Positions 2,287 to 26,760 of a stretch of 64,000 nt of DNA are shown piece after piece. The notes beneath the pieces were generated by a model. The model worked only from the letters and a program-made list of their open reading frames with translations, was not told the DNA's origin and ran no database searches. Positions within the stretch are counted from its first letter, which is position 1; each line of letters begins with the position of its first letter. The stretch spans positions 8,550 to 72,549 of the forward strand of contig DASWWL010000110.1 in assembly GCA_036400975.1 (NCBI GenBank), read 5' to 3'. Position numbers and translations under genes: made by a program. This stretch comes from Novosphingobium sp. (GTDB lineage Bacteria; Pseudomonadota; Alphaproteobacteria; Sphingomonadales; Sphingomonadaceae).

Positions 2287-3377
2287 TGCGTGACCTCCTG
2301 CAACACATGGCGCCTCAACTGATCGCGCTCCAGGCTTTCGAACAAGGCCTGGAAATTGCCTTCGCCGAAGCCTTCATCGCCGCGCCGCTCGATGAACTCG
2401 AAGAAGACCGGGCCTATCGTCGGTTCCGCGAAAATCTGCAGGAGCAGCCGGGGACCGTCGCCCGCCACCGTCCCGTCCAGCAGGATGCCGCGGGACCGCA
2501 GCGCCCCGATGTCCAGACCATGCCCCGGCAGGCGCTCCTCGACCATGTCGTAATAGGTATCGGGCGGCGGGGGCATGAAGGGCACGCCGGCATCTTTCAG
2601 CCGGTCACACACCTCGGCAAGATCATCGCAGGCGAAGGCGATGTGCTGGATGCCTTCGCCATTGAAGCGCCGCAGGAACTCGTCGATCTGGCCATGGCCG
2701 CGCTCGCCTTCTTCGTTCAGCGGAATGCGTATCCTGCCGTCGGGCGCAGTCAGTGCGCGCGAGGTCAGGCCGGTATGTTCGCCCTTGATATCGAAGTGCC
2801 GGATTTCCCGGAAGTTGAAGAGCTTTTCATAATAGCCGGCCCAATAGGCCATTCGCCCGCCATAAACGTTATGCGTCAGGTGATCGATCCGGCGCAGGCC
2901 CGCGCCCGCCGGATGGCGGTCCTCACCGGGAAGGTAAGCGAAATCGATGTCGTAGATCGAAAGCGCGCCGTCGCACTCGCTCTCATAGCGGTCGACCAGA
3001 TAGACGATCGCGCCGCCGATCCCCCTGATCGCGGGCAGATGCAATTCCATCGGGCCGGTCTCGACCAGTACGGGTTCGGCCGAACGTGCGAGCAATTCAG
3101 CATAGGCGCGATGCGCGTCCCTGACGCGGAATGCCATGCCGCAGGCGCTTGGCCCATGCTCGCGCGCGAAGTAGCTGGCCGGGGATCCCGGCTCATAATT
3201 CGTGACGAGATTGATCTCGCCCTGCCGCCAGAGCTCAACGTCCTTAGAGCGGTGCCGGGCGATGCGGCGGAAACCCATGGCCGCGAAGACGGGTTCGAGC
3301 AGGCCCTTTTCCGGCGCGGAGAATTCGACGAACTCGAAGCCGTCGAGGCCGATGGGATTGGTGAATAGCGTGGTCAT
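2283..3377 (-). CDS. hppD: 4-hydroxyphenylpyruvate dioxygenase
   Basis: [54 protein letters not shown]. Start moved to MTTLF (3377), overlapping the phhA stop. Confidence 0.96.
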
Positions 3378-4246
3378 CCGCCATTCTCCATCGGAACGAC
3401 TATCTTGTAGATGCGATCGCCAGGCTGATGTTTTCCGGGCGGGAGCGGCGGAGAATCGCGCCACTTTTGATAGATTGGGCCGAAATCGAGGGAGACCAGT
3501 TCGGAAAGCAGGCGATCCAGACTATCGAGAACGAAGTAGCAGCTCTGGAACGTGTCGATGTTATAAGCGGTGCGCATGATCCGCACCGGATCGAAGCGCA
3601 GCCGCATCACGTCCGGATTCTCGACGCTGTAGACGATCTCCCCGGCCGAGGAGACGAGCCCGGCGCCGAAAGCCCGCAGGCCGCGGCCTTCGTCGATCAG
3701 GCCGAACTCGACCGTGTACCAGTATATCCGGGCCAGCATATCGAGCGCGCCCATGGCCATCGCGCGTTCTCCCGCACGGCCATAAGCGGTCATGAAATCG
3801 GCGAAAGCCGGGTCTAGCAGCATCGGCACGTGGCCGAAGAAATCATGGAAGACGTCCGGCTCGACGAGGTAGTCCAGCTCATGCTCCTCGCGCAGCCAGC
3901 CGGTTACCGGAAAACGGCGGCCGGCAAGGTGATCGAAGAAAACCTCGTCGGGAATGAAACCGGGCACGGCGACCAGCCGCCAGCCGGTGGCCGGCCGCAG
4001 CACATCGTTTGCCTCGTCGAAGCGGGGAATGCGGTCGGCGCAATCGAGCCGGGCCAGGCCGGCGAGGAACCGGGAGGAAGCATGGCGCTGCGCCAGCGCA
4101 CTCTGGCGGGCATGGAGCCGCCGCCAGCGATCGTGCATCTCTGGACGGTAGGCCGTCCAGTCCTGCGTGATCGTATAATCGGCGCCAGCCGCTTCATAAT
4201 TGCCACGAAGACCGCTGGCGCTCTTGGCGGAGCCAGGTCGTTGCAT
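3374..4246 (-). CDS. phhA: Phenylalanine 4-monooxygenase
   Basis: [38 protein letters not shown] motifs. Start (MQRPG) is approximate. Confidence 0.95.
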
Positions 4247-4353
4247 GTCATGAAGATACCACCGATCGGACGCGATTTTCGTGCAAATCACTGCATTGGA
4301 AGAGGACCATAATAGTGGTATCCTCTATAAATAATCATCAATTGAGTGAAATC

Positions 4354-4815
4354 ATGCCCATCGACACTTTCGACCGCCAGATCATCACTGCGCTGCAGGA
4401 AGACGGCAGGATGCCGATCGCCAACCTCGCCGACCGGGTCTCGCTATCCGCGACACCGGTCAGCCGCAGGCTGAAGCGGCTGGAAGAGGAAGGCTACATT
4501 CGGGGTTACGCGCCGATCCTCGACTTGCGCAAGCTGGGTTTCGAACTTGACGCTTATGTGCTGGTCAACCTGCAGATCCACAACGACGAGAACATCGACC
4601 GGTTCGAACGCGAGATCCTGGCGAATCCCTGCATCGTGTCGTGCCATTCGGTGACCGGCGACATGGACTACCTGCTCCACGTGATTGCACGCGATGTCGA
4701 TCATCTCAACCAGTCGACGCTCAAGATGCTCGTCCGCATTCCCGGCGTGCGCGACGTGAAGTCGATCATCGCGCTTGAGGCGGTGAAGCCCCTCCAGTCG
4801 GTGCCGCTCGGCTAA
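4354..4815 (+). CDS. Lrp/AsnC family transcriptional regulator
   Basis: DRQIITALQEDGRMPIANLADRVSLS HTH and VTGDMDYLLHV AsnC domain; divergent from phhA across an AT-rich gap. Confidence 0.93.
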   Translation: MPIDTFDRQIITALQEDGRMPIANLADRVSLSATPVSRRLKRLEEEGYIRGYAPILDLRKLGFELDAYVLVNLQIHNDENIDRFEREILANPCIVSCHSVTGDMDYLLHVIARDVDHLNQSTLKMLVRIPGVRDVKSIIALEAVKPLQSVPLG

Positions 4816-5046
4816 CACGGGCTCCGATAACGGGACACAGTCTCTTTTCCCGATCCCTCGCCGGGACAGCTTTCGCGATCGCGCCGAAAGGTATATCATG
4901 CGCGCACCGCCATGAGGGCGTACTCGCGCCGAAGGACATGCTCATTTGCACCGCAAGGCGAAAATCGTGAGCATGATCCCGCAAGAGTAAAGAAAAACGG
5001 CGCAGATCGACGCTTCATCATGGCGAAAGCCAGGAGGATGCGATCC

Positions 5047-5880: not shown

Positions 5881-6558
5881 TCACGGTTTCCCGCCCGGCT
5901 CGGCCGGGTGGGGCTGTGGCAGCGGAAGCGGACGGTCGTTGAGCGTGGCCAGATACTTGATGATGGCCGCGCGGTCTTCCGGGCGGCGCAGGCCGGCGAA
6001 GCTCATCTTCGTGCCGGGAACCTCCCTCGCCGGCGAGCCGAGATAGGCGAAGAGCGCATCGTATCCCCACCCTCCCGGATGCGCGATCATCGCCGGCGAA
6101 TATGCGAAGCCCGAGACAGAGGCGACGTCACGTCCCACGACACCCCACAGATTGGGCCCGATGCGATTTGGCCCGCCCTTCTGGAAATCATGGCAGCTCA
6201 TGCAGACGCGGGCCTTCTGCTGTCCGGCGCCGGCGTCGGCCTGCGCCAGCAGCGTACCGAGGTCTAGCGGCACCGACGGCGCCACGGCTCCAACGGCGGC
6301 TATCGGCGCGGTTCCATGCATGTCGTGCTGATAAGCGACCAGCCGATTGCGTTCTTCCACGTCGCCGAGGTTGGCCGGCCAGCCCCGCTGCACCGAGGCG
6401 AGATCGATGCGCGGCGGCATGTGTTCGACCGGCTTGTAGGCCAGCTCTCCCGGGTGAGCTTCGGGATAGAGCTGGTCCAGGAACCAGCTTACGCCGATCA
6501 TGAGGGTCAGACTGACCGCGACGGTCGCGCCGGCCGCCATCCATTGCCCGCGCTTCAT
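5881..6558 (-). CDS. Membrane-anchored class I cytochrome c
   Basis: N-terminal TM, CMSCH heme motif, GPNLWGVVGR, PGTKMSFAGL. Confidence 0.92.
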   Translation of the reverse strand: MKRGQWMAAGATVAVSLTLMIGVSWFLDQLYPEAHPGELAYKPVEHMPPRIDLASVQRGWPANLGDVEERNRLVAYQHDMHGTAPIAAVGAVAPSVPLDLGTLLAQADAGAGQQKARVCMSCHDFQKGGPNRIGPNLWGVVGRDVASVSGFAYSPAMIAHPGGWGYDALFAYLGSPAREVPGTKMSFAGLRRPEDRAAIIKYLATLNDRPLPLPQPHPAEPGGKP

Positions 6559-6561
6559 GGC

Positions 6562-6918
6562 TCAGCCCCCACCGCCCAGGAAGATCGCCCGGGTCCAATA
6601 GGTATAGTCCGATTCGATCAGCATGATGCGGATCAACACCAGCAGCACCAGCGGCGGCACCAGTATCGCATAGATCAGGGAAAGCCGCTCCCAGGCCATA
6701 TGCATGAAGATCGACACGATCAGCCCGGCCTTGAGCAGCATGAAGACCACGATCAGCGTCCAGCGCAGGATGCCCTGAACGTGGAAGTAGTCGACAAGGT
6801 AGGACAGAGTGCTGAGAACGAAGAGATAACCCCACACCTTGAGGTAGAGGCCGATAGGATGCTGCTGGCCGCTACCGTGGCCGGAAGCCTCTTGCTGGGC
6901 GGAAATGGGATCGTGCAT
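6562..6918 (-). CDS. Cytochrome c oxidase subunit IV family (CoxQ-like)
   Basis: YLKVWGYLFVLS and KAGLIVSIFMHMAWER; three TM helices; operon position. Confidence 0.82.
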   Translation of the reverse strand: MHDPISAQQEASGHGSGQQHPIGLYLKVWGYLFVLSTLSYLVDYFHVQGILRWTLIVVFMLLKAGLIVSIFMHMAWERLSLIYAILVPPLVLLVLIRIMLIESDYTYWTRAIFLGGGG

Positions 6919-6934
6919 CGGCCGCACCCTTCGT

Positions 6935-7630
6935 TCACCAGAGATAGAAAAAGGCGAAAATGAATACCCAGACGAGATCCACGAAGTGCCAGTAGAGTCC
7001 GGCGATCTCGACCGCCGAATAATCGCCCGCCGCGTCATAGTGTCCCCGCAGGACCTTCGAGGCGACGACCAGCAACAGGATGACGCCGCAAGTCACATGC
7101 AGACCGTGAAAGCCGGTGATCATGAAGAACGAGGCGCCGAATTGGGGGGCGCCCATGGGATTGCCCCAGGGACGCACGCCTTCCTCAACGATCAGCTTGG
7201 TCCATTCGAAGGCTTGCATGCCGACGAACATCGCGCCGAAAAGGGCCGTCACGAACATCAGCGCGGCCGTTTTCCGGCGATCGCGCCGATAGCCGAAGTT
7301 GACCGCCATCGCCATCGTGCCGCTCGAGCTGATCAGCACGAAAGTCATGATCGCGATAAGGATGAGCGGGATGGATTGCCCCCCGATCGTCAGCGCGAAG
7401 ACTTCGGCGGTATTGGGCCAGGGAAGCGTCGCCGAGGCGCGCATCACCATGTAGGAAGTCAGGAAACAGGAAAAGATGAAGGTATCGCTGAGCAGGAATA
7501 TCCACATCATCGCCTTGCCCCAGTGGGTATGACGGAAGACTTCCTGATCGGCCGACCAGTCGGCGGCGATCGCGCCCATGCCCCCAGGGGCATTTTCGTG
7601 GCTCTCTTTCTCCATCAGCAATTGCGACAT
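6935..7630 (-). CDS. coxP: Heme-copper oxidase subunit III (CoxP-like)
   Basis: WIFLLSDTFIF, FFMITGFHGLHV, GLYWHFVDLVWVFIF. Confidence 0.88.
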   Translation of the reverse strand: MSQLLMEKESHENAPGGMGAIAADWSADQEVFRHTHWGKAMMWIFLLSDTFIFSCFLTSYMVMRASATLPWPNTAEVFALTIGGQSIPLILIAIMTFVLISSSGTMAMAVNFGYRRDRRKTAALMFVTALFGAMFVGMQAFEWTKLIVEEGVRPWGNPMGAPQFGASFFMITGFHGLHVTCGVILLLVVASKVLRGHYDAAGDYSAVEIAGLYWHFVDLVWVFIFAFFYLW

Positions 7631-7653
7631 GGCGATATCATCCCGCCTTGTTT

Positions 7654-8286
7654 TCAGGTCGACACCAGCAACCCCACCAGAACGATCCAGACCAGCAACA
7701 GGAAATGCCAGTAAAGCGCGCAAAGCCCGACATTGCGCAGCGCATGGCGGCTGACGCCTTCATCGCCCAGCCGGGCCAGCACGCGCGCGGCGGCCACCAG
7801 ACCGCCGGCCAGATGCACGCCGTGCAATCCCGTCAGCAGATAGAAGAAGGCATTGGCCGGATTGGCCGAAGCGAAGTAGCCCGCCGCCTGGTAATGCCGC
7901 CAGAGCAGGATTTGCCCGAAGAGAAACGCCAGTCCCAGCAAGCCGCCGGTCACGCTCGCCAGCCGGACCCGCCGCAGTTCGTCCGGCGCGCGGCGCGCGG
8001 CTTCCCAGGCCGCACTGCTCGCGATGAGGATCCCCGTGTTGATCCAAAGCAGCATAGGCTCGGGCATGGGCCGCCAGTCGGCCACCATGCCGTGTTCCAT
8101 CGCGCCCGCCATGCCCATTCGCATGACATAGGCCGTCACCAGCAACGAGAAGGCGACGCTCGCGACGGCAAGATAGGCGACGAGGCCGACCGTCGTTGCA
8201 GCCGGGCGGTAATCCTCCGGCTCGCCGAAATCCTGCGCTCCGGGCGTCTGCCAGCTTTTCTCTGCAAGGCGGCTGAGCAGGCTCAC
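7654..8286 (-). CDS. coxO: Heme-copper oxidase subunit III (CoxO-like)
   Basis: AFFYLLTGLHGVHL and LYWHFLLLVW; GTG at 8286 overlaps the subunit I stop (GTGA). Confidence 0.85.
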   Translation of the reverse strand: MSLLSRLAEKSWQTPGAQDFGEPEDYRPAATTVGLVAYLAVASVAFSLLVTAYVMRMGMAGAMEHGMVADWRPMPEPMLLWINTGILIASSAAWEAARRAPDELRRVRLASVTGGLLGLAFLFGQILLWRHYQAAGYFASANPANAFFYLLTGLHGVHLAGGLVAAARVLARLGDEGVSRHALRNVGLCALYWHFLLLVWIVLVGLLVST

Positions 8287-10001
8287 GAGGGCGGCTCGTT
8301 CTGCGGGATGAAGTCGCGCGCGGCGCCGGGCACGCTGTAATCGTAGGCCCAGCGATAGACGACGGGAAGCCTGGGCCCCCAGTTGCCGTGATGCGGTGGC
8401 GTATCGGGCGTCTGCCATTCCAGGCTCGCCGCCCCCCATGGGTTGGGATCGGCCTTGGGCCCGCGGAACCAGCTCCAGATCATGTTGTAGAAGAAAAGCC
8501 CCTGGGACAGGAACACGACGATCGCCGCGACCGAGATCGCCTGGTTGGCGAGATGGACGGAATCAGGAATGAATCCGGTCTCCCCCAGCGCATAGTAGCG
8601 GCGCGGCACGCCCAGGACGCCAAGGTAGTGCATGGGCAGATAGATCACATAGACGCCCAGGAACGTCAGCCAGAAGTGAAGCTTGCCCAGCCTCTCGTTC
8701 CACATCCGACCGGTGATCTTCGGATACCAGTGATAGATCGCCCCGAAGATCACCAGGATCGGCGAAACCCCCATGACCATATGGAAGTGGGCGACTACGA
8801 AGAAAGTGTCGGAAAGCGGCACATCGACGCTGACGTTGCCCAGGAACAAGCCGGTCAGCCCGCCGTGGATGAATGTGAAGATGAAGGCGATGGCGAAGAG
8901 CATCGGCACCCGCAGGTGGATGTCCCCCCGCCACAGCGTCAACAGCCAGTTGTAGACCTTGATCGCCGTCGGAATGGCGATGACCAGCGTCGATACGGCG
9001 AAGAAGAACCCGAAGTAGGGGTTCATCCCGCTGACGTACATGTGATGCGCCCATACGATGAAGCTCAGCGCCCCGATGATGACGATCGCCCAGACCATCA
9101 TGCGGTAACCGAAGATATTGCGCCGCGCATGCACGCTGATCAGGTCGGAAACGATGCCGAAGGCGGGCAGCGCGACGATGTAGACCTCGGGATGGCCGAA
9201 GAACCAGAACAGGTGCTGGAACAGGATCGGACTGCCGCCGACCGTGCCGGCGGTCTGCCCCATCGTCTGCATCGCCGGCATGAAGAAGCTCGATCCCACC
9301 AGATGGTCGAGCAACATCATGATCGCCGCGACGAACAGCGCGGGAAAGGCCAGTAGGCCCATGATCGAAGCGGTGAAGATGCCCCAGACCGACAAGGGCA
9401 TGCGCATCAGCGTCATGCCCTTGGTCCGCGCCTGAAGCACGGTCGTCACATAATTGAGACCGCCCATGGTGAAGGCGATGATGAAGATCGCCAGGCTGAC
9501 GAGCATCGTGATGATGCCCCATTCGTGGCCCGGCGTGCCCTCGCTGATGGCCTGCGGCGGATAGAGCGTCCAGCCCGCCCCGGTCGGTCCGCCCGGCACG
9601 AAGAAGCCGGCGACAAGCACGAGAACCGACAGCAGGTAGAACCAGTAGCTCAGCATGTTGACGAAGGGGAACACCATGTCCCGCGCGCCGATCATCAGCG
9701 GGATCAGGTAGTTGCCGAAACCTCCGAGCAGCAGCGCGGTAAGCAGATAGACGACCATGATCATGCCGTGCATCGAGACATACTGGAGATAATTCTCCGG
9801 CTGGATCGCCGGGAAAAGGCCCGGAAAGCCAAGCTGGAGCCGCATCAGCACCGATAGCACCAGCGCCACGAGGCCAATGGCGATCGCCGTCAGGCCGTAC
9901 TGGATGGCGATGACCTTATGATCCTGGCTCCAAACGTACTTGCCGACCCAGCTTCGGGGATGATGCAGCGGCCTCAGGTCGTCGGCCAGAGTGGTAGCCA
10001 T
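8283..10001 (-). CDS. coxN: Cytochrome c oxidase subunit I (CoxN-like)
   Basis: WFFGHPEVY, VWAHHMY, VVAHFHMV ligand motifs; ATG at 10001 overlaps the subunit II stop (TGATG). Confidence 0.95.
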   Translation of the reverse strand: MATTLADDLRPLHHPRSWVGKYVWSQDHKVIAIQYGLTAIAIGLVALVLSVLMRLQLGFPGLFPAIQPENYLQYVSMHGMIMVVYLLTALLLGGFGNYLIPLMIGARDMVFPFVNMLSYWFYLLSVLVLVAGFFVPGGPTGAGWTLYPPQAISEGTPGHEWGIITMLVSLAIFIIAFTMGGLNYVTTVLQARTKGMTLMRMPLSVWGIFTASIMGLLAFPALFVAAIMMLLDHLVGSSFFMPAMQTMGQTAGTVGGSPILFQHLFWFFGHPEVYIVALPAFGIVSDLISVHARRNIFGYRMMVWAIVIIGALSFIVWAHHMYVSGMNPYFGFFFAVSTLVIAIPTAIKVYNWLLTLWRGDIHLRVPMLFAIAFIFTFIHGGLTGLFLGNVSVDVPLSDTFFVVAHFHMVMGVSPILVIFGAIYHWYPKITGRMWNERLGKLHFWLTFLGVYVIYLPMHYLGVLGVPRRYYALGETGFIPDSVHLANQAISVAAIVVFLSQGLFFYNMIWSWFRGPKADPNPWGAASLEWQTPDTPPHHGNWGPRLPVVYRWAYDYSVPGAARDFIPQNEPPS

Positions 10002-10870
10002 CAGCGAGTCCTCTCCAGAGCGGGCGAAGTGCAGACGTTGGCGGTATCGAACAAGGCTGTGCGCGCAGCCGGCGTGGCTTCGGCTAACAATTGCCCGAAG
10101 CTGCTTTGCTGGGCGAGCCAGACGTCGAAGTCGCGCGGCGAGTCGACAACGACGGTCCCGCGCATCTCGTGATGTCCGACGCCGCAAAGCTCCGCGCAGA
10201 GGATGTCGAACTTGCCCTTGCGCGTGGGCGTCATCCAGAAATAAGTGACGAGCCCCGGCACCAGATCCATCTTCGCGCGGAACTCGGGCACGTAGAAATC
10301 GTGCAGCACGTCCTTGGAACGCAGCACCATCTTCACCGGCCTGCCCAGCGGCAAGTGCAGTTCGTTGGTCTCGACCAGGATGTCGTCGCGCCCGAAAGGG
10401 TCGAGCGGATCGAGGCCGAACGTGTTGTCGGGAGTCATGTGCTTGATCCCGGCCGCGCCCAGCACTCCATCGGGACCCGGCAGGCGGAAGGACCATTGCC
10501 ATTGCTGCCCCAGCGCCTCGACGATGGCCGCATCACGGGGAACGTTCACATATTTCCCCCAGGCGATCAGGCCCGGCGCCAGCATGCCGATGATCCCGAT
10601 CGCCGTCCAGAACGTCAGCCGCTTCTCCAGGCTCGTGTTCTCGGGCTCGTAATGCGCGCGATGGCCGGGGCGATGGCGGTAGCGCATCAGTGAATGGGCA
10701 AGGAACAGGTTGAGCAGGACGAAAGCCGTGGCGCAGATCCACAAAGTGATGTCCAAAGCCGAATCGATCGAACCCCAGTTCGACGCGATCGGCGTCCGCC
10801 ACCACGGGCTGAGCAGATGAAAAGCAATTGACCCCAGCACGAGCAGCGCGATCGCGATCGCTACCGGCAT
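10001..10870 (-). CDS. coxM: Cytochrome c oxidase subunit II (CoxM-like)
   Basis: DVLHDF and CAELCGVGHHEM CuA motifs; GQQWQW; GGAGG RBS before MPVAI. Confidence 0.94.
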   Translation of the reverse strand: MPVAIAIALLVLGSIAFHLLSPWWRTPIASNWGSIDSALDITLWICATAFVLLNLFLAHSLMRYRHRPGHRAHYEPENTSLEKRLTFWTAIGIIGMLAPGLIAWGKYVNVPRDAAIVEALGQQWQWSFRLPGPDGVLGAAGIKHMTPDNTFGLDPLDPFGRDDILVETNELHLPLGRPVKMVLRSKDVLHDFYVPEFRAKMDLVPGLVTYFWMTPTRKGKFDILCAELCGVGHHEMRGTVVVDSPRDFDVWLAQQSSFGQLLAEATPAARTALFDTANVCTSPALERTR

Positions 10871-11041
10871 AGACCCTCCCCCTGTGTTCGGGCGGTCTCT
10901 TGCGTGGTCGTCCGGCTTGAATTCAATCCGGACGGTGCAGAGTCGCCCCACGGAAAGCCAATGGCGAATGGTACAGCCAATTGGACAAGAAGGAAAGTAA
11001 ACTACGTCGCAGGGCGCTGCGATCAATTCAGGGGGTAATAA

Positions 11042-12679
11042 CTAGCGATAGATTTCAAAATACTGCGTTTCGCCGATTTTGGTGAAATGCGTGCGTGCAT
11101 AGGCGGCCAGGGGATATCGGAAACTGGTCGGCGACGGTGTCAGTTTCCTGGCGATCAGTGCGGTTTCGTATTTGGCGACAATAATCGACAGTCTGCCTCG
11201 CTGTGCGTTCATGGCGCCGATCGCGCGGTCCCGCAGTCGCGGAGATCCGAGCTCGATCCATTGCGGCCAGTCGACGGGCAACGGATTGCCCTGATCGGCG
11301 GCGGCCCACCAGCCGGCGAAATCGGGCTGGATCGTATAGGGCTTTCCCGCCTCGGCTATCGCCGCCTGCAAGTCTCGCATGACGAGATAGGTGTTCCGAT
11401 CGACGAGCAGCCCCCTGCCGCCAGGCAAGATACCATCGAGACGCCAGACAAGTTCGCTCGCCGGCCGCTCCAGATAGACATATTTCAGACGCGCCTTGTC
11501 GAAGTTCCAAAGGCACAGCAGCGTCAATCCGACGACGATCGCAGAGGCGGACGATCTTATGGCGCGCGGGCTGGCGGAGGTGGCGAAATAGAGCGCAAGC
11601 AGAACCGTAGCGGACAAGCCCGCCGCCAGGGCCGGCGTATTATAGCCGATCGACAGTGCGGTGCACCATGCCGCCGCCACGGCAACCAGCCCCAATCGCC
11701 AATGCGCCCTGTTCCGGGCCGGGTCTGCGGCCAGTCCCAGGGTCGTGCCGCAGGCAAGCCCGAACAGGCCGAACGCCGGCGCGCCGATATAGCGGCCCGC
11801 AGTCATCGCGAAACCCGCTTCGGCCAACAGCAGCGCCACAACCGCCAATCCACAAAGCGAGAGTACCGGCGCATCGCCATGCTGCGAGGGCGCTTTCAGC
11901 AGGATGGCCATCAACAAACCGATCACCGCGCCCGCCGCATAGGCAGGTTCCCACAGGTATTTTAAAAACCCCGGCGTGATCATGTCGCCTTGAGTGGTGA
12001 GTTGCAGCCAGGCGTCACCCGCGCCGCCCGAAAGCACCACGATCAAGGCATAGATCATCGGCGCGGCGAGGACGGCCAGCGCCGCAAGTCCGCGCTGACG
12101 CTGCTCGAACAGAAGAACGATCAGAGGCGGACAGAACAGGAAGTTCTGCTTGCACAATATCGCCGCGCCCATCAGCCCGTAGCCCACGAACCTTGCAGCA
12201 CCCCTGTCGGCGACACAAATGGCGAAACCGGCCGTCAACAGGAATAGCCCGTCTATGGTGTGCCAGGCCATGACCGGGAAATAATGCGCCGAAAGCGCAA
12301 AGCCGGTCAGCCCCACGCAGATCCTGATCGACGGCGACAACTCCACCTCGAGAACGCGCGCGGAGATGCCTGTCCATGACCATGCGATGAAGGCCAGCTG
12401 TACCCATACGAAATAACGCGAAATCAAATAAATGTGGTCGCCGCCGAAGGCCACGAACGGTGCATGCAGGTAGCACGAACCGGCAAGATGGATCGCGGTG
12501 AAATCGAGGTGCGGGATCTGCCCGCCCAGGACGCGCCGCGCGCAGGCCAGAACGAATCCGTCGTCGGTGGGATTGAAGCCGAATGCCGAATACCGCCACT
12601 GCGCCAGCCCGCTAACTGCTGCGATGAAGAATGCCGGCATCAGCCGGCTGAGAAGATCGCTGGGCCTTCGGGCGTTCAT
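11042..12679 (-). CDS. Polytopic membrane protein, GT-C-fold glycosyltransferase-like
   Basis: Many hydrophobic helices plus soluble C-terminal domain; first loop PTDDG...GQIPHLDF resembles GT-C acidic motifs; GAGG RBS before MNARR. Confidence 0.55.
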   Translation of the reverse strand: MNARRPSDLLSRLMPAFFIAAVSGLAQWRYSAFGFNPTDDGFVLACARRVLGGQIPHLDFTAIHLAGSCYLHAPFVAFGGDHIYLISRYFVWVQLAFIAWSWTGISARVLEVELSPSIRICVGLTGFALSAHYFPVMAWHTIDGLFLLTAGFAICVADRGAARFVGYGLMGAAILCKQNFLFCPPLIVLLFEQRQRGLAALAVLAAPMIYALIVVLSGGAGDAWLQLTTQGDMITPGFLKYLWEPAYAAGAVIGLLMAILLKAPSQHGDAPVLSLCGLAVVALLLAEAGFAMTAGRYIGAPAFGLFGLACGTTLGLAADPARNRAHWRLGLVAVAAAWCTALSIGYNTPALAAGLSATVLLALYFATSASPRAIRSSASAIVVGLTLLCLWNFDKARLKYVYLERPASELVWRLDGILPGGRGLLVDRNTYLVMRDLQAAIAEAGKPYTIQPDFAGWWAAADQGNPLPVDWPQWIELGSPRLRDRAIGAMNAQRGRLSIIVAKYETALIARKLTPSPTSFRYPLAAYARTHFTKIGETQYFEIYR

Positions 12680-12690
12680 CGGACTATCCT

Positions 12691-13032
12691 CTAAGGCCGT
12701 TGCTGGAGTTCGATCAAAAGTTCGGGCGTGATGTCTTCGCTGACGGACTGGCCGGCCCAGGTGGCGTAATCGCGAATGGCCGCGCGTGTCTTGGCGCCGG
12801 TCTTGCCGTCGATGACGCCAGGATCGAAGCCGCGCGCGAAGAGGGCTTCCTGAACGCGATAAACCAGGTCCTGCCGAACCACTCCGGGATCGGGCATGAA
12901 ATAGAGCGGTGGATAGCCGGGCACGCCCAGCGGCTGATCTGGGGCGCAGGTTGCAAACTGGCCAAGCTCGAAAACGACAGGCGCCGCCAGGATGAGCAGT
13001 GCCCGCCGGGCGCTTCTCGTCTCGCTCAGCAT
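12691..13032 (-). CDS. Small peptidoglycan-binding domain protein with N-terminal hydrophobic segment
   Basis: RVQEALFARGFDPGVIDGKTGAKTRAAIRDY matches the PG_binding_1 pattern; overlaps the upstream gene's end by 7 nt. Confidence 0.8.
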   Translation of the reverse strand: MLSETRSARRALLILAAPVVFELGQFATCAPDQPLGVPGYPPLYFMPDPGVVRQDLVYRVQEALFARGFDPGVIDGKTGAKTRAAIRDYATWAGQSVSEDITPELLIELQQRP

Positions 13033-15932
13033 TTGTGCGCACCCCGCACCGCCGGCAGCGCATCGGTGCCGACGATTTCCAGACCGTTCGCGGCACCGAT
13101 GCGACAGACCAGCAACCGGGCGGCGGCCAGATCATAAGGCGGTCTGGCAAGGAAATTGAGCAACAGGTGGCTGTCGTAGACATCCCGGCGCTGCGGCAGC
13201 GGCCAGAAATCTCGCACCCGCCACAACCTGAGATCGCCGTGCGATCCGCCCGAGGCCAGCATCCGCCCGTCGGGGCTGAACCGTGCCGTCAGGGCAAAGT
13301 CGCGGTGCCCGGTCAGGAAGGCAACCAGCCTGCCTTTCCTGACATCCCATAAACGCAAGGTCTGGCGATCGTTGCTCTGCGATCCAGACGCAAGCAAGGC
13401 GCCATCCGGGCTGAACGCAAGCGTCCAGACCATAAACCCGTGGTGGCCCATCAGATCAGCCCGCGGACGGCAGGCATGAGCGGCAAGGCAAGCCCTGACG
13501 TTCCAGAACTTTATCCGGCCATCGCCGCCGCCGGAAACCAGACTGCCGTCATCGGGGGAAAATGCGACAGGCCTTGCCGCTTCGGAATGGCCGGACAGCA
13601 CCGCTGCGGGAGGCATCCGCCCGGTCGGATCGGCCGACTCCACGGCCCAAAGCCTTACCGCGTGATCATTGCTTGCGGAGGCGATCAGGCGGCCGTCGGA
13701 AGAGAAAGCCACGCCGCCCACCGCATCCGAATCCTGCCTGAGTTGGCCAAGGAAGCGCAAATCCGGCAGCGACCACAGCTTGACGGACTTGTCCCAACTG
13801 GCGGTCGCCAGAGTCTTTCCGTCACGGGATATCGCCAGATCGAAGATCCAGCGATCATGGCCCGGCACCGGCCCCTTTGCGATCCTGCGTCGCCGCCAGT
13901 CCCAGACGACGATCCTTCCGTCGCGCCCCGCCGATACGAGGAATTCTCCGTTGGGCGCAAACGCCAGGGCGCGGACAGCGTCGGCATGCGCGCCGGGCAG
14001 TGGACCGGGCAGAGGCTGCAGCGTCGATGCGTTCCACAGGCGAATGGCCTTGTCATCGCCCGCGCTCGCAAGGACTGTACCGCCCGGATCCCATGCCACC
14101 GCCCGCACCGCGCCGGAGTGGGCGGCGGTGGAGACGAAATCGAAAGGACGAGGAAGCGTCCAGGCTTGCAGGACGTGATCCTCGGAACTCGCGGAGAGCA
14201 AGGAACGGCCGCCATTGGCGAAAGCGAGATCGACAATCGGTCGTGCATGGGCGTTCAGGGTCGCGACGCGGTCCATCGACGTCACATCCCACAGGCTTAC
14301 GCTCCAGTCGTCGCTGCCGCTGGCCAACAGGCGGCTGTCAGGGCTGAAGGCCAAGGCTCCGACCAGGCGCTGATGGCCGGTCAGCACTTCGTCCGGCTGT
14401 TTATCGCGAAGACTGGAAAGGCGGATGGTACTGTCGAACAACCCCACCGCCATCCAGCGCCCGTCGGGGCTGAATGCCAGGGATTCCGGCGCCTCGGCAT
14501 ATGTTCTGACGGGGCCGTCCGACTTGCCGCTGGCGCTGTCCCACAGCATCAGGGTCTTACCGCCTCGCCCATCGGCGACCGCGCCCAGCTTGTGGCCGTC
14601 GGGGCTGAAAGCCAGGTCGTGAAAGTAGTTCTGGCCCTCGCCCAGCAGCCGAACCGGCCCCTGGACTGCGGAATTCTTTCCGATATCCCATATCCGGACC
14701 CCGAAGCCGTCTCCGGCTGCCGCCAGCCTCTCCTCACCGGAAGCAAAAGCGACCTTGCGTATCGGCGGGCCGCCAGTCTGCAGCAAAGCGGGAGCACCCG
14801 CGCCCCTGGACCAGAGCGCCACTGTCCCGTTGCGCGAACCTGCCGCGACCAGCCCCCCATTCGTCAGCGCCAGAGTAGCGATCGGCCCGGATTTCGACCG
14901 GAGGACTCTCAAAGGCCTGGAATCCTTCGCCGTTGCCATGACGATGGTCCCGTCGCCGCGCGACCAGGCAATGAATTCGCCATTCGGCGATGCGGCGAAT
15001 GCACCGGCGAAATCGGATTCGGTCAGCCGCCGCCCGGCAACGGTGCTGGTCGATATGGACCTGACGAAGTCCTTCTTGCGCTCAAGCTCAGGATTGCCAC
15101 CGGAACCCGTGCCAGCCAGTTCGCCAGCCATCAGGCCATATTGTATCCAGGCTGCCCCATAAAGCGCGGCCGAACGATCGTCGTTCTGTTGGGCCGCGGC
15201 CTGCGCCTTCTGGAACATCAGTTGTGCCAGACGCGTATTCTGGCGCTGTTCGGCCAGTAGCGTCTGCTGGTGTCCCTGATACCAGATGCTGCCGATTACC
15301 GCGAGAACGAGCGCCGCCGCCGTCATGGCCAGGATATTGCGAGTTGTCCGGCGCCGCTGCTCGCGTCGCATCAGATCATCGAAATTCACGCCGAGCACAC
15401 CGGCTATCAGCTTCATCTTGGCGCGGTGCAGGCCATCTCCGCCCTTGCGCAAATCGGCCGCGATCGGCTCCGCCCGCTGCGCGCCAAGCGTACCGGACGG
15501 GGTGACGTCGTACCGGATCGCTTCAGGAAAGCACTCGATCTCGCCAAGCTCGGGTTTGTCGGATGCGTTCGGTTCACCGGAAACGATGAGGCATAGAACG
15601 CGGTCGGCGCCGCCCGCCATCTTGAACCGTCTTATTTCCTCGTTGACCCATCTCGAAACCGCCGCGTGCGGCGAACAGATGACGATCAGGTATCTCGAGT
15701 TCTGCAGGGCCTCGCCGATGTTCTGCGACAGGCTGGAGGAAGTAGGCAATTCCTCGCGGTCGATGAAGACCGGGCTGATCCGTTCGGGAACGCTGCCATC
15801 CCGGCTGGGCAATCCGACCAGTCGGCGAGGAACGCGATATCTCTCCAGAGCCGCGTGGAGCCATCGCCCCCACCGGGCATCATGGTGACTGTAGCTGACG
15901 AATGCCCAGTATTTCGGTGAAGATTTCACCAA
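13026..15932 (-). CDS. TIR domain - transmembrane helix - WD40 repeat protein (about 14 repeats)
   Basis: AFVSYSH, FIDREEL, SRYLIVICSP, WVNEEI TIR motifs; hydrophobic ILAMTAAALVLAVIGSIWY; 14 repeats of the LAFSPDG...WD type; TTG start with G-rich RBS. Confidence 0.9.
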   Translation of the reverse strand: MVKSSPKYWAFVSYSHHDARWGRWLHAALERYRVPRRLVGLPSRDGSVPERISPVFIDREELPTSSSLSQNIGEALQNSRYLIVICSPHAAVSRWVNEEIRRFKMAGGADRVLCLIVSGEPNASDKPELGEIECFPEAIRYDVTPSGTLGAQRAEPIAADLRKGGDGLHRAKMKLIAGVLGVNFDDLMRREQRRRTTRNILAMTAAALVLAVIGSIWYQGHQQTLLAEQRQNTRLAQLMFQKAQAAAQQNDDRSAALYGAAWIQYGLMAGELAGTGSGGNPELERKKDFVRSISTSTVAGRRLTESDFAGAFAASPNGEFIAWSRGDGTIVMATAKDSRPLRVLRSKSGPIATLALTNGGLVAAGSRNGTVALWSRGAGAPALLQTGGPPIRKVAFASGEERLAAAGDGFGVRIWDIGKNSAVQGPVRLLGEGQNYFHDLAFSPDGHKLGAVADGRGGKTLMLWDSASGKSDGPVRTYAEAPESLAFSPDGRWMAVGLFDSTIRLSSLRDKQPDEVLTGHQRLVGALAFSPDSRLLASGSDDWSVSLWDVTSMDRVATLNAHARPIVDLAFANGGRSLLSASSEDHVLQAWTLPRPFDFVSTAAHSGAVRAVAWDPGGTVLASAGDDKAIRLWNASTLQPLPGPLPGAHADAVRALAFAPNGEFLVSAGRDGRIVVWDWRRRRIAKGPVPGHDRWIFDLAISRDGKTLATASWDKSVKLWSLPDLRFLGQLRQDSDAVGGVAFSSDGRLIASASNDHAVRLWAVESADPTGRMPPAAVLSGHSEAARPVAFSPDDGSLVSGGGDGRIKFWNVRACLAAHACRPRADLMGHHGFMVWTLAFSPDGALLASGSQSNDRQTLRLWDVRKGRLVAFLTGHRDFALTARFSPDGRMLASGGSHGDLRLWRVRDFWPLPQRRDVYDSHLLLNFLARPPYDLAAARLLVCRIGAANGLEIVGTDALPAVRGAHKC

Positions 15933-24977: not shown

Positions 24978-25064
24978 GCCCAGATGGCGGAATTGGTAGA
25001 CGCACCAGCTTCAGGTGCTGGCGCTCGCAAGGGCGTGGAGGTTCGAGTCCTCTTCTGGGCACCA
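24978..25064 (+). tRNA. tRNA-Leu (anticodon CAG)
   Basis: GCCCAGA/TCTGGGC acceptor stem, GGAATTGGTAGA D-loop, CCAGC-TTCAGGT-GCTGG anticodon arm, long variable arm, GGTTCGAGTCC, encoded CCA. Confidence 0.97.
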
Positions 25065-25164
25065 CAACTGGCTCTGGCGACGTCCAGGTAAGTCCAGTAA
25101 GCGGCTGGTTTCACAGCATTTCTTGACCGAAAATCGCCAGACACCGTCCGGCGAAATCCGGCTA

Positions 25165-25209
25165 AGAGCACCAGCAGCAGCCACAAAATGTTGCTCTTTT
25201 TGGTGCTCT
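25165..25209. repeat. Putative integrase arm-type binding sites
   Basis: TGTTGCTCT-TTT-TGGTGCTCT direct repeat (25189-25209) plus inverted AGAGCACCA (25165-25173), between the tRNA and int. Confidence 0.55.
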
Positions 25210-25241
25210 CGGATCGACCCGGCTTTGCTGGGAAAACGACC

Positions 25242-26471
25242 ATGCTGACCTACATCCAGATCAATGCCGCCAAGCCGAAAGCGAAGGCTTGGACCCTGAG
25301 CGATTCACAAGGCCTCCATCTCCAGATCCAACCCAACGGCTCTAAGCTCTGGCGCTTCAAGTATCGGTTCCTGGATAAGCAGAAGACGCTCCATCTTGGA
25401 GGATGGCCGCAGGTAAGCCTGGCCGACGCCCGCGTGCAGCGTGACGAGGCGAAAAAGAAGATCGCGGAAGGGATCGATCCGGCGCTGGAGAAAAAGCGCG
25501 CCAGGATCGCTGCCAAGTACGCTGCTGCCAACACCTTTGAGGCGGTGGCGCAGGAATGGCTTGTTAAATGCGAGCGGGATGGCCTCGCGCCGGTGACTGT
25601 CGACAAGATCCGCTGGCTACTCGCCAAGGCGTACCCAGTGATCGGCACCATCCCCATCGCGCAAATCACACCCCATGAAGCACTCGCCGTCCTGCGCAAG
25701 GTCGAGGCGACAGGCGCCTATGAAAGCGCACGGCGAATGCGGAGCGTCCTTAGCCGCGTCTTCCGATATGGCGTCGCGACTGTGCGATGCGACAAGGATG
25801 TCGCGGCCGATCTACGCGGGGCAATCGCCGCGCCGAAGGTCAAGCACTTCGCCGCCATCACCAAGCCCTCCGAAGTGGGCGCCCTACTGCGGGCCATCGA
25901 CGGGTATACCGGGCACAAGGTGACAGTAATGGCCATGCGCCTGTCTCCGCACGTTCTACTGCGCCCTGGCGAGCTTCGGCAGACCGAATGGTCCGACATC
26001 GACTTCGATGAAGCCATCTGGTTCATTCCCGCCGAACGGATGAAGATGCGCCGCCCCCACCGCGTGCCACTGTCACGGCAGGTGATCGCAATGCTGAAGG
26101 AACTGCACGAGCACACGCATTGGTGGAAGTATCTGTTTCCCTGCCTCGGCAAGCCGCGCAAGCCGATGTCGGAGAATGCCGTCAACCAAGGCCTGCGCAA
26201 GCTCGGCTACACCACTGACCAGATGACTGCGCATGGATTCCGGGCAATGGCCGCCACGCTTCTCAACGAGATGGGCGAATGGAACCCCGACGCGATCGAG
26301 CGGCAACTCGCGCATGTCGATACCAACCAGGTTCGGCGGGCCTACGCCCGCGGCGAATATTGGGATGAGCGTGTGCAGATGATGCAGCGCTGGTCCGACT
26401 ATCTCGACGAACTGCGCGATGGCGGCAAAATCCTCCGGCCCAGCTTCCCGGCGACACGACGCGCATCCTGA
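25242..26471 (+). CDS. int: P4-like tyrosine integrase with N-terminal Arm DNA-binding domain
   Basis: LSDSQGLHLQIQPNGSKLWRFKYR arm domain; LLRPGELR, HGFR, QLAH, RRAY catalytic motifs. Confidence 0.95.
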   Translation: MLTYIQINAAKPKAKAWTLSDSQGLHLQIQPNGSKLWRFKYRFLDKQKTLHLGGWPQVSLADARVQRDEAKKKIAEGIDPALEKKRARIAAKYAAANTFEAVAQEWLVKCERDGLAPVTVDKIRWLLAKAYPVIGTIPIAQITPHEALAVLRKVEATGAYESARRMRSVLSRVFRYGVATVRCDKDVAADLRGAIAAPKVKHFAAITKPSEVGALLRAIDGYTGHKVTVMAMRLSPHVLLRPGELRQTEWSDIDFDEAIWFIPAERMKMRRPHRVPLSRQVIAMLKELHEHTHWWKYLFPCLGKPRKPMSENAVNQGLRKLGYTTDQMTAHGFRAMAATLLNEMGEWNPDAIERQLAHVDTNQVRRAYARGEYWDERVQMMQRWSDYLDELRDGGKILRPSFPATRRAS

Positions 26472-26483
26472 TCACACCACTCC

Positions 26484-26519
26484 ACGTGCTGGCGGTCGTC
26501 GACTGCCAGCACGTTCTTT
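26484..26519 (+). terminator. Probable intrinsic terminator after the integrase
   Basis: ACGTGCTGGC/GCCAGCACGT 10-bp arms plus inner stem, followed by TCTTT. Confidence 0.65.
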
Positions 26520-26534
26520 GGTCAGCATTAAGGC

Positions 26535-26611: not shown

Positions 26612-26760
26612 GCGGCGCTCAAACAGTCAGCAGCGCCCTCCTCGCGGGTGAGGGGCGAATCATCCTTGCATCTGTCTCTCGTGAAGCTGCTAGCTCTGAA
26701 GCACCAGCAGCCAATCGTTCCCAGACCATCCGATATGACGTGGCCGCAAGGCGCAGCCAG

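What the first reader, a model, noticed from the sequence alone, without database searches (positions are those of the whole stretch)
11042..15932. Toll-like three-gene unit: TIR-TM-double WD40 propeller, PG-binding protein and GT-C-like enzyme
Seen: co-oriented genes (7-nt overlap, 11-nt gap). The first has an N-terminal TIR with the WVNEEI glutamate, one TM helix and 14 WD40 repeats (two 7-blade propellers), with Cys residues in the distal part. Known: bacterial TIR domains with this Glu are often oligomerisation-activated NADases in defence. Inference: a trans-envelope sensor with cytoplasmic TIR and periplasmic propellers, working with a wall-anchored partner and a surface-modifying transferase. 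It could be an undescribed defence or envelope-surveillance system.
Basis: partly seen in the sequence, partly recalled or inferred. Interest (0 to 1): 0.75.

Follow-up and report, generated by a model that had tools for sequence, protein, structure and literature searches.

The report
Membrane TIR receptor with glycosyltransferase partners
Three linked genes encode a membrane protein with an immune-type TIR enzyme domain inside the cell and two propellers probably outside it, a small cell-wall-binding protein and a new type of sugar-transferring membrane enzyme; the trio travels together across three bacterial phyla and looks like an untested way of coupling events at the cell envelope to TIR signalling.

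Summary
On the minus strand lie gene A (13026-15932), gene B (12691-13032) and gene C (11042-12679), with a 7-nt overlap and an 11-nt gap.

- **A** has a TIR domain with an invariant Glu99, one transmembrane helix and 14 WD40 repeats.
- **B** has a signal-anchor helix and a PG_binding_1 domain.
- **C** matches no Pfam family, but its confident model matches only GT-C glycosyltransferases, and it has an invariant acidic motif in the first loop.

The linkage is real. All 11 C homologues that sit beside an A homologue form one clade spanning three phyla. All 12 glycosyltransferase-linked A proteins form one clade within a much larger TIR-TM family. In sister loci, B and C are replaced by DUF218 plus a GT28 glycosyltransferase.

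Charge bias (105 of 108 proteins) and the family's alternative C-terminal domains support a TIR-in, propeller-out topology.

Ten of 12 related loci also encode a SLOG-domain protein, fused to a cyclase or a membrane region. In this genome that partner lies on another contig.

My best reading is an outward-sensing, Thoeris-like TIR signalling module with a glycan-handling accessory pair. Its function is untested. I found no defence-island context in this window and no description in the literature I could search.

The parts
13026..15932 (-). Gene A: TIR - single TM helix - linker - 14 WD40 repeats - 60-aa tail (968 aa)
   Evidence: ORF and translation; Pfam TIR_2, ThsB_TIR and WD40 matches; more than 1500 homologues of the N-terminal module
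15348..15914 (-). TIR domain with C-terminal extension (residues about 7-195); conserved Glu99 in the WVNEEI motif
   Evidence: Pfam TIR_2 E 4.8e-15. W95 and E99 align with the W...E of TcpB. E99 is invariant and E98 at least 90% conserved. This is the most conserved part of A, at 68% mean identity
15279..15335 (-). Single transmembrane helix (residues 200-218), arginine-rich on the TIR side
   Evidence: Hydropathy 2.11 and the only such segment in A. Across the family, K+R in the flanking 15 residues averages 6.75 on the N side and 2.9 on the C side, with N greater than C in 105 of 108 proteins
13209..15014 (-). 14 WD40 repeats (residues 307-908), consistent with two 7-bladed propellers; predicted periplasmic
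   Evidence: A repeat profile finds 14 repeats in A and in 9 homologues; Pfam beta-propeller families. Cysteine pairs 815/821 and 943/968 are gained and lost together among homologues
12691..13032 (-). Gene B: small signal-anchored peptidoglycan-binding protein (113 aa); PG_binding_1 at residues 54-94 (nt 12751-12873)
   Evidence: Pfam PG_binding_1 at 26.9 bits against cut-off 23. N-terminal hydrophobic helix at residues 11-29. Homologues have the same layout in L005-L009, L087 and L001
11042..12679 (-). Gene C: polytopic membrane protein of an unnamed family with a GT-C glycosyltransferase fold (545 aa)
   Evidence: No Pfam, NCBIfam or PADLOC hit. AF2 model pLDDT 92.7. Foldseek top hits are AftD, EmbA/B, ArnT, STT3, AglB, DPY19, PMT and ALG9/6. 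225 loci in reference genomes encode relatives
12554..12580 (-). GFNPTDDGF motif of C (residues 34-42) in the first loop after TM1; candidate catalytic acidic pair
   Evidence: G34, D39 and G41 are invariant, and N36, P37, T38 and D40 at least 90% conserved, in 43 homologues. The position just after helix 8-30 in the model matches the first external loop where GT-C enzymes carry their catalytic Asp (established knowledge)

Best explanation
A, B and C form a horizontally spread, envelope-facing TIR signalling module.

- **A** is a type-II membrane receptor. Its enzymatically competent TIR domain is in the cytoplasm, and two WD40 propellers are in the periplasm.
- **B** is a small inner-membrane-anchored protein that binds peptidoglycan.
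- **C** is a GT-C-fold glycosyltransferase. Its active site faces the periplasm and probably uses a polyprenyl-phosphate sugar.

Inferred mechanism: B and C make or hold a wall- or membrane-linked glycan, or glycosylate the receptor's ectodomain, and the propellers read it. A change at the envelope clusters the receptor. The cytoplasmic TIR domains then assemble and convert NAD+ into an ADPR-type nucleotide. Where a SLOG-domain partner exists, that nucleotide switches it on. The partner is a SLOG-cyclase (encoded on contig C112 in this genome) or a SLOG-membrane protein. Where none exists, as in Holophaga, NAD+ consumption itself may be the output.

Shown here: the domain content, the conserved linkage, the clade structure, the fold assignments and the charge bias.
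Inferred: the topology, the enzyme activities, the ligand, the signal and the biological role. I favour an alarm or defence-type role over housekeeping because the module is sporadically distributed.
For: **Linkage**
- A-type and C-type genes are adjacent in the window and in L001, L005-L010, L030 and L087. In Holophaga foetida the order is C-A-B.
- All 11 A-adjacent C proteins form one clade with SH-aLRT 98; 0 of 500 label shuffles are as clustered.
- The 12 glycosyltransferase-adjacent A proteins form one clade with SH-aLRT 99, set apart from 65 other TIR-TM proteins that have no such neighbour.
- Non-homologous replacement occurs. L094 and L095 carry A + DUF218 + GT28. L010 carries A + DUF218 + an SGNH/AlgX-like gene + C.

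**Topology**
- There is a single helix, and the positive-inside rule holds in 105 of 108 proteins.
- The same TIR-TM module is elsewhere fused to PQQ, FG-GAP and PEGA domains. A different TIR lineage with the same TIR-TM layout carries a YARHG domain. These are domain types usually found outside the cytoplasm.
- The distal cysteines are gained and lost in pairs.

**TIR competence**
- E99 is invariant, and the TIR is the most conserved region of A.

**C as a GT-C enzyme**
- Evidence comes from the fold search and the invariant acidic loop motif.
- Distant C homologues sit beside GT2, DegT, FemAB, sulfatase-type and other glycan genes.

**Output**
- The domain shared by the neighbouring cyclases and membrane proteins folds like DprA, LOG, the MoCo-carrier protein and ShosA, i.e. 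the SLOG superfamily (probability 1.0, E 1e-4). Weak Pfam hits to YAcAr and DprA agree.
- Such a protein lies within 10 kb in 10 of the 12 clade loci.
- The window's genome has exactly one, 66% identical to the L006 copy.
- bioRxiv 10.64898/2025.12.03.692087 reports Thoeris types whose effectors sense TIR-made cADPR. It notes that the TPR domain of the type VIII effector was predicted earlier to take part in TIR-mediated signalling.

**Sporadic distribution**
- C is absent from 40 relatives, 24 of them in the same genus.
- The nearest relative's copy lies between a Lamassu system and a recombinase.
Against: - No experiment exists for any member.
- In this window the unit sits among housekeeping-type genes, not defence genes. 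It hits no PADLOC system.
- The SLOG partner is not in the window. It lies on a 5.4-kb contig of a 204-contig assembly with 2.8% estimated contamination, where it overlaps a different TIR-TM gene by 4 nt. It may therefore serve that gene rather than A.
- The Holophaga genome has C-A-B but no such SLOG protein.
- GT28 acts on the cytoplasmic face and GT-C on the periplasmic face, so their equivalence is not straightforward.
- Fold matches for C are probable but weak in E-value and TM-score.
- WD40 propellers in a periplasm are unusual.
- The TIR-TM module is very strongly conserved (about 60% identity across phyla). The propellers are not hypervariable. This is unlike many fast-evolving immune sensors.
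Confidence: 0.5

Rival explanations
1. A is a self-contained abortive-infection sensor and effector. Phage action at the envelope activates it, and its TIR simply depletes NAD+ and stops growth. B and C only help to place or mature it, and no second messenger is involved.
For: The catalytic Glu is retained. Holophaga keeps C-A-B without any SLOG partner. The window has no partner within 64 kb. The closest relative's copy lies next to Lamassu genes and a recombinase. The module is sporadically distributed.
Against: Ten of 12 clade loci, and about 30 loci of the wider family, carry a SLOG-domain neighbour. That arrangement is what signal-producing TIRs have. There is no defence island in this window and no PADLOC match.
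Confidence: 0.2
2. The module is a physiological signalling pathway, not a conflict system. It would be a receptor that reports cell-wall or envelope status (growth, stress, nutrients, neighbours) to cyclic-nucleotide signalling. The glycosyltransferase and wall-binding protein would belong to the envelope process that it monitors or controls.
For: The flanks are housekeeping genes in the window and in L088, L094 and L095. The neighbours in L001 are signal-transduction genes (histidine kinase, GGDEF, SpoIIE, STAS). RyR-kinase and TrkA-RyR neighbours occur in L009 and L087. The output domain is a class III cyclase rather than a toxin. The TIR-TM module is highly conserved.
Against: The module is absent from 40 related genomes, so it is dispensable and horizontally acquired. 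It is associated with mobile-element genes in L005 and L007. SLOG-membrane partners resemble pore-type Thoeris effectors (the resemblance is by analogy only).
Confidence: 0.2
3. A is a non-enzymatic scaffold. Its TIR domain acts only as a protein-protein adaptor that organises a cell-wall glycosylation complex made of C and B.
For: Many TIR domains act as adaptors (established knowledge). A glycosyltransferase is always present in this clade.
Against: The residues typical of enzymatic TIRs are invariant, including the Glu. The frequent SLOG partner has no role in a pure scaffold model. Most of the TIR-TM family has no glycosyltransferase neighbour.
Confidence: 0.07
4. The adjacency is accidental: three unrelated genes that happen to be neighbours.
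For: Nothing beyond the absence of experimental data. Promoter and terminator scans were uninformative.
Against: Linkage is conserved in 11 loci from three phyla, once in permuted order. The A and C trees both recover single clades. The genes overlap or are tightly spaced.
Confidence: 0.02

Closest known systems
Thoeris anti-phage systems (ThsB TIR signal producer plus an effector with a signal-binding domain: type I ThsA SIR2-SLOG; types VII (SLATT) and VIII (TPR-CMP hydrolase) in bioRxiv 10.64898/2025.12.03.692087)
   Same: A has a TIR domain with the catalytic Glu and a ThsB_TIR Pfam match. The recurrent neighbour carries a SLOG-fold domain, often preceded by the TPR-S domain, fused to an output domain. 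The logic is the same: TIR makes a signal and a sensor domain gates the effector.
   Different: The TIR protein is membrane-anchored with a large predicted periplasmic propeller sensor. The output is a class III nucleotide cyclase or a membrane protein. In this window the effector gene is not adjacent. The B and C genes have no Thoeris counterpart. There is no PADLOC or NCBIfam Thoeris match above threshold. No phage phenotype is known.
GT-C glycosyltransferases (ArnT, PglB/STT3/AglB, PMT, EmbA/B/C, AftD, ALG and DPY19 enzymes)
   Same: The predicted fold of C is GT-C. An invariant acidic motif follows TM1 in the first loop. There is a C-terminal soluble domain. Distant homologues sit beside GT2 polyprenyl-phosphate-type glycosyltransferases and sugar aminotransferases.
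   Different: C belongs to no described sequence family (no Pfam or NCBIfam hit). Structural similarity is only moderate (TM-score up to 0.48). Donor and acceptor are unknown. One clade is dedicated to a TIR receptor.
Animal Toll-like receptors
   Same: Both have a repeat-built ectodomain, one transmembrane helix and a cytoplasmic TIR domain.
   Different: Orientation is type II (TIR at the N terminus). The ectodomain is made of WD40 propellers rather than LRRs. The TIR is of the enzymatic bacterial kind. There is no sequence relationship beyond the TIR fold, so this is an analogy and not membership.
Receptor Ser/Thr kinases with extracytoplasmic beta-propeller sensors (e.g. Mycobacterium tuberculosis PknD; recalled from memory, not tested here)
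   Same: Both have a cytoplasmic N-terminal catalytic domain, one TM helix and an external beta-propeller.
   Different: The output domain is TIR, not a kinase, and the propeller is WD40, not NHL.
TIR plus TPR-S systems predicted by Burroughs & Aravind (J Bacteriol 2020, e00365-20; paper not held, known to me from memory and from its citation)
   Same: TPR-S-containing proteins sit beside TIR genes in L001, L010, L090, L094 and L095.
   Different: I could not check whether membrane-anchored TIR-WD40 proteins or the B and C genes are described there. The window's own cyclase lacks the TPR-S part.

Membership tests
TIR domain (Pfam TIR_2 / ThsB_TIR) | Match to the family profile above the curated cut-off | tested here: met
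   TIR_2 56.6 bits (cut-off 28), ThsB_TIR 39.6 (21.2), TIR 26.5 (21.3)
Enzymatic (NAD+-cleaving) TIR domains | Conserved catalytic glutamate after the W of the alpha-C region | tested here: met
   W95 and E99 align with the W...E of TcpB. E99 is invariant in 16 aligned homologues and at least 90% conserved in 96
Enzymatic (NAD+-cleaving) TIR domains | Measured NADase or cyclase activity | not testable with these tools
   Needs biochemistry
Thoeris | TIR gene next to an effector gene with a signal-binding domain (SLOG, Macro, SLATT, TPR and others) | tested here: not met
   There is no SLOG-domain gene in the window. The genome's only one is on contig C112. The feature is met in 10 of 12 related loci
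Thoeris | Match to curated Thoeris or defence-system models | tested here: not met
   NCBIfam Thoeris_type3_ThcB4 scores 15.8 bits against cut-off 220. PADLOC gives only the weak PDC-S66 hit (22 bits) and a repeat-driven hit. The partners hit nothing in PADLOC
Thoeris | Protection against phage | not testable with these tools
   Needs a phage challenge in a laboratory strain
WD40 double propeller | Fourteen WD40 repeats in tandem | tested here: met
   14 repeats at residues 307-908 in A and in 9 homologues. Folding into two 7-bladed propellers was not modelled
PG_binding_1 proteins | Profile match above cut-off plus an export signal | tested here: met
   26.9 bits against 23. N-terminal hydrophobic helix at residues 11-29. 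Homologues have the same layout. Binding to peptidoglycan itself is untested
GT-C glycosyltransferases | GT-C membrane fold | tested here: met
   Eight of the 10 best PDB matches and 17 of the top 22 are GT-C enzymes, with probability 0.85-1.0 (at least 0.96 for the first eight), E 4e-3 to 0.13 and TM-score 0.25-0.48. Transporters fall to probability 0.4 or less. The model has pLDDT 92.7
GT-C glycosyltransferases | Conserved acidic residue(s) in the first extracytoplasmic loop | tested here: met
   In GFNPTDDG, D39 is invariant and D40 at least 90% conserved, directly after TM1
GT-C glycosyltransferases | Membership of a described GT-C sequence family; lipid-phosphate-sugar donor | tested here: not met
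   No Pfam or NCBIfam family matches. The donor cannot be tested here. The only indirect hint is GT2 neighbours of distant homologues
Toll-like receptors | LRR ectodomain, type I orientation, C-terminal adaptor-type TIR | tested here: not met
   The ectodomain is WD40, the TIR is N-terminal and of the enzymatic type

The most novel reading that the evidence does not exclude
This may be a bacterial transmembrane 'guard' receptor. The glycosyltransferase (GT-C here, GT28 in sister loci) installs a self-made glycan mark on peptidoglycan, on a lipid-linked precursor or on the receptor's own ectodomain. The wall-binding protein B (or DUF218) holds the receptor's propellers against that mark. Removal or alteration of the mark, for example by phage depolymerases or lysins, competitor enzymes or wall damage, releases and clusters the receptor. 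The cytoplasmic TIR domains then fire an NAD-derived alarm that a SLOG-gated cyclase converts into a cyclic-nucleotide response. That would be outside-in innate immune signalling across the bacterial envelope, without a STAND NTPase.
Probability: 0.12. Interest if true: 0.85.

Novelty: new variant of a known kind. Interest (0 to 1): 0.62.

Why it matters
All characterised bacterial TIR systems sense events inside the cell. A TIR enzyme wired to a periplasmic sensor would show that bacteria can start NAD-derived signalling from the envelope, the first place that phages, predators and antibiotics touch.

The glycosyltransferase-linked clade gives a concrete handle on what such a receptor reads, because it comes with its own wall-binding and glycan-building genes. 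It also uncovers a large unnamed GT-C-fold family, with relatives in 225 loci of reference genomes across many phyla.

The system is small (three or four genes). It can be tested in laboratory strains with a Glu-to-Ala control.

Tried and rejected
- **Sequence-only naming of C:** Pfam, NCBIfam and PADLOC gave nothing, so I went to structure.
- **Sequence-profile search of the SLOG-like domain against PDB:** only chance-level hits. The fold search was needed.
- **Defining insertion boundaries from relatives:** this failed. The neighbouring cytochrome oxidase subunit II has no close homologue in 14 relatives, and the hexapeptide transferase only scattered ones. I can say the module is absent from relatives, but not where it was inserted.
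- **Genomic island:** the tRNA-Leu plus P4-type integrase at 24978-26471 begins an island that runs away from the unit and carries chaperone and ABC-transporter genes. It is not the unit's vehicle.
- **Promoter and terminator scan:** counts equal those of shuffled sequence.
- **Plasmids:** no C homologue, and only distant TIR matches.
- **Literature:** searches for the TPR-S / DUF4071 terms returned noise. The key Burroughs & Aravind 2020 paper is not held.
- **Chance adjacency:** considered and rejected.
- **Second A-like gene in the genome:** considered and rejected; there is only one match.
Full report
**1. What is in the sequence**

The minus strand of window 11042-15932 carries three ORFs, exactly as described.
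- A spans 13026-15932 (968 aa). It has a TTG start, a GTG one codon later, and a G-rich Shine-Dalgarno-like stretch just upstream.
- B spans 12691-13032 (113 aa).
- C spans 11042-12679 (545 aa).
- A and B overlap by 7 nt. B and C are 11 nt apart.

Base composition is unremarkable against the rest of the window. Downstream on the same strand is a cytochrome oxidase operon: COX2, COX1, two COX3-like genes, COX4_pro and a cytochrome c. Upstream and divergent lies a hexapeptide-repeat transferase, followed by prephenate dehydrogenase and an aminotransferase.

**2. Gene A**

The N-terminal 320 residues match TIR_2 (E 4.8e-15), ThsB_TIR (7e-10) and TIR (6.5e-06). The rest matches WD40 and many beta-propeller families.

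Against PDB sequences, the best though weak matches are bacterial TIR proteins. In those alignments W95 and E99 of the WVNEEI motif lie on the W...E of TcpB. That position is known to hold the catalytic glutamate in NAD-cleaving TIRs.

In 96 homologues the TIR-to-membrane module is extraordinarily conserved, and E98 and E99 are both at least 90% conserved. E99 is invariant in a 16-sequence alignment.

There is one hydrophobic helix at residues 200-218 and no other. A repeat profile finds exactly 14 WD40 units (residues 307-908) in A and in nine homologues. This is consistent with two seven-bladed propellers, although I did not model them.

By region, mean identity to 20 homologues is 68% for the TIR, 41% for propeller 1 and 58% for propeller 2. 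The sensor part is therefore not hypervariable.

**3. Topology**

Across 108 family members the 15 residues on the TIR side of the helix carry on average 6.75 Lys+Arg, against 2.9 on the other side. The N side is richer in 105 proteins, equal in 3 and poorer in none. No member has a second hydrophobic segment.

The same TIR-TM module is fused in other proteins to PQQ/BamB-like, FG-GAP and PEGA domains or to TPR. In this genome's contig C112, a different TIR lineage with the same TIR-TM layout carries a YARHG domain. Most of these are domain types usually found outside the cytoplasm.

The four distal cysteines occur as two pairs (815/821 and 943/968). Each pair is present or absent together among homologues, as expected for disulfides.

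Together this makes TIR-in and propellers-out the most likely arrangement. It remains a prediction.

**4. Gene B**

B has an N-terminal basic stretch and a hydrophobic helix (residues 11-29), then a linker and a PG_binding_1 domain (26.9 bits, cut-off 23).

Homologues of 91-125 aa with the same layout lie beside A-type genes in L005-L009, L087 and L001. In L001 the gene is on the opposite strand, between A and C.

**5. Gene C**

C hits nothing in Pfam, NCBIfam or PADLOC.

It has about 96 clustered homologues in the protein collection, all unnamed. Relatives are encoded at 225 loci in reference genomes of many phyla.

A 43-sequence alignment shows an invariant G34/D39/G41 within GFNPTDDG, plus other invariant polar residues (R88, D143, Q178, Q226, R397).

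The AlphaFold model is confident (pLDDT 92.7, pTM 0.94). It shows a helix at 8-30, then the loop holding the motif, about a dozen further helices, and an alpha/beta C-terminal domain.

In Foldseek against PDB, the best hits are AftD, EmbA/EmbB, ArnT, human and yeast STT3, AglB, DPY19, PMT and ALG9/ALG6. Their probabilities are 0.85-1.0, while transporters fall to 0.4 or less. E-values (4e-3 to 0.1) and TM-scores (0.3-0.48) are modest.

I therefore call C a GT-C-fold protein of a new sequence family. Its activity, donor and acceptor are not established.

Distant homologues sit in glycan or cell-wall neighbourhoods. These include GT2 (11 loci), a sulfatase-type enzyme (8), FemAB-type genes (7), DegT aminotransferase (7), UDP-glucose dehydrogenase and flippase clusters. 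This fits an envelope glycoconjugate role.

**6. Is the trio a unit?**

Yes. A-type and C-type genes are adjacent in the window, in L001 (= L013), L005, L006, L007, L008, L009, L010, L030 and L087. L012 is truncated.

The hosts are Alphaproteobacteria (Sphingomonadaceae, Hyphomicrobiaceae, Rhodospirillaceae), Holophaga foetida (Acidobacteriota) and Methylomirabilota. In Holophaga the order is C-A-B.

On a tree of 87 C-family proteins, the 11 A-adjacent ones form one clade (SH-aLRT 98). One change explains the trait, and 0 of 500 shuffles are as clustered.

On a tree of 77 TIR-TM-linker segments, the glycosyltransferase-adjacent proteins form one clade of 12 (SH-aLRT 99). None of the other 65 has such a neighbour.

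That clade contains two loci (L094, L095) in which B and C are replaced by a DUF218 membrane protein and a GT28 (MurG/UgtP-type) glycosyltransferase. L094 also has a UDP-glucose dehydrogenase. L010 has DUF218 plus an SGNH/AlgX-like gene plus C.

Replacement of both accessory genes by non-homologous genes of the same general kind is good evidence that the receptor needs a glycosyltransferase and a small envelope protein. The two transferase types work on opposite faces of the membrane, so the common product is more likely a lipid-linked or wall glycan than a direct modification of A.

A sample of 80 other TIR-TM loci from metagenomes has no B, C, DUF218 or GT28. The trio therefore defines a sub-family, not the whole family.

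**7. The missing fourth gene**

The commonest neighbour of TIR-TM genes is a protein that carries a roughly 190-residue domain fused to one of two outputs:
- a class III nucleotide cyclase, often preceded by the TPR-S and MAP3K_TRAF_bd regions;
- a C-terminal membrane region.

That domain gives only weak Pfam hits, to YAcAr and DprA. Its model (pLDDT 93.8) matches DprA, LOG, the MoCo-carrier protein and ShosA at probability 1.0 and E about 1e-4. These are all members of the SLOG superfamily.

Such a gene is within 10 kb in 10 of the 12 loci of the glycosyltransferase-linked clade. In L005-L007 it lies directly downstream of C.

The window has none. The genome has exactly one, on the 5.4-kb contig C112. 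It is 66% identical to the L006 copy, which is about the same divergence as A and C show. It overlaps by 4 nt the end of a second, different TIR-TM gene that carries a YARHG domain.

The Holophaga genome has none.

SLOG domains are the cADPR-isomer sensors of Thoeris ThsA (established knowledge). A recent preprint reports Thoeris types VII and VIII, which use cADPR. It notes that the TPR domain of the type VIII effector had been predicted to take part in TIR-mediated signalling (10.64898/2025.12.03.692087).

**8. Most likely mechanism**

A is an outward-looking TIR receptor. A cue in the periplasm changes the state of the propellers. The TIR domains assemble on the inner face and turn NAD+ into a nucleotide signal. 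A SLOG-gated cyclase or membrane protein, where present, converts that signal into a response.

B and C are periplasm-facing accessories that build, modify or tether what the propellers contact. This last step is the weakest inference.

Whether the purpose is defence or physiology is open.
- For a conflict role: the module is absent from 40 relatives. Mobile-element genes lie around L005 and L007, and a Lamassu system lies next to the closest relative's copy.
- For a physiological role: the flanks are housekeeping genes here and elsewhere, the neighbours are signal-transduction genes, the output is a cyclase rather than a toxin, and conservation is strong.

**9. Comparison with the known**

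The module works like Thoeris but fails its membership tests in this window. There is no adjacent effector and no curated model match. Its sensor topology and its B and C genes have no counterpart there.

It resembles Toll-like receptors only in outline.

C has the GT-C fold but belongs to no described family.

I found no paper describing this trio. The 2020 Burroughs & Aravind paper, which predicted TIR plus TPR-S systems, is not held, so I could not check it.

Earlier notes of this scan on other genomes reached the same view of the TIR-TM-WD40 family and its SLOG partners. They are not independent evidence. I reproduced the family-level claims here. The glycosyltransferase-linked clade appears in none of the notes that look-up returned.

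**10. Verdict**

I class this as a new variant of a known kind of system, of moderate to high interest, with every functional step still to be tested.

Noticed in passing
own genome contig C112 (locus L093) 2437-5018, minus strand: A second membrane TIR gene (TIR_2 - TM - proline-rich linker - YARHG domain, about 327 aa from the MVDVF start) overlaps by 4 nt a 377-aa SLOG-cyclase gene. The contig is only 5.4 kb in a 204-contig assembly, so its link to the window's organism is not proven.
   Followed up: partly
window 24978-32001: tRNA-Leu(CAG) is followed by a P4-type tyrosine integrase (25188-26471), then Hsp20, GroES and GroEL genes and, further on, a DUF3526-type ABC-2 transporter. This looks like an integrated island carrying chaperones, separate from the TIR unit.
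   Followed up: partly
window 5881-11026: The cytochrome oxidase operon next to the unit has two COX3-like genes. Its COX2 has no close homologue (E <= 1e-40) in 14 related genomes, so it may be an acquired accessory oxidase.
   Followed up: partly
L005 1340-4837 and 13086-14420: In the closest relative (an uncultured Novosphingobium MAG), the A-B-C-cyclase module lies directly downstream of Lamassu genes (LmuA E 3e-124, LmuB E 1.5e-174). A recombinase-like gene (named from its sequence, not scanned) lies about 1.7 kb beyond the cyclase gene. This is a defence-island-like, mobile context.
   Followed up: partly
L003 / L044 (Thermodesulfobacteriota MAG) 4483-9668 of L003: A distant C homologue sits directly downstream of an 1133-aa TPR-CHAT (caspase-like) protein that has an N-terminal hydrophobic segment. 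A CarD-TIR protein lies 3 kb away.
   Followed up: no
L051 7617-11611: Another C-family member lies directly downstream of a Ser/Thr kinase-TPR protein. C-family enzymes may often pair with receptor-like proteins.
   Followed up: no
L009 15292-16659 and L087 4749-6479: RyR-domain proteins (RyR-protein kinase; TrkA_N-RyR) lie next to two A-B-C loci from different phyla.
   Followed up: no
L001 7722-7997: In this locus the PG_binding_1 gene lies between A and C but on the opposite strand, overlapping the end of A.
   Followed up: no
L089 2940-10672; also L137, L153, L159, L175: Two TIR-TM genes occur in tandem, with different ectodomains in L089 (WD40, and PEGA/FG-GAP/PQQ).
   Followed up: no
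14 metagenome loci, e.g. L138 2517-4808: A roughly 770-aa secreted protein with a He_PIG Ig-like domain recurs within 5 kb of TIR-TM genes of about 750 aa (directly downstream in L138). It may be a further partner class of the wider family.
   Followed up: no
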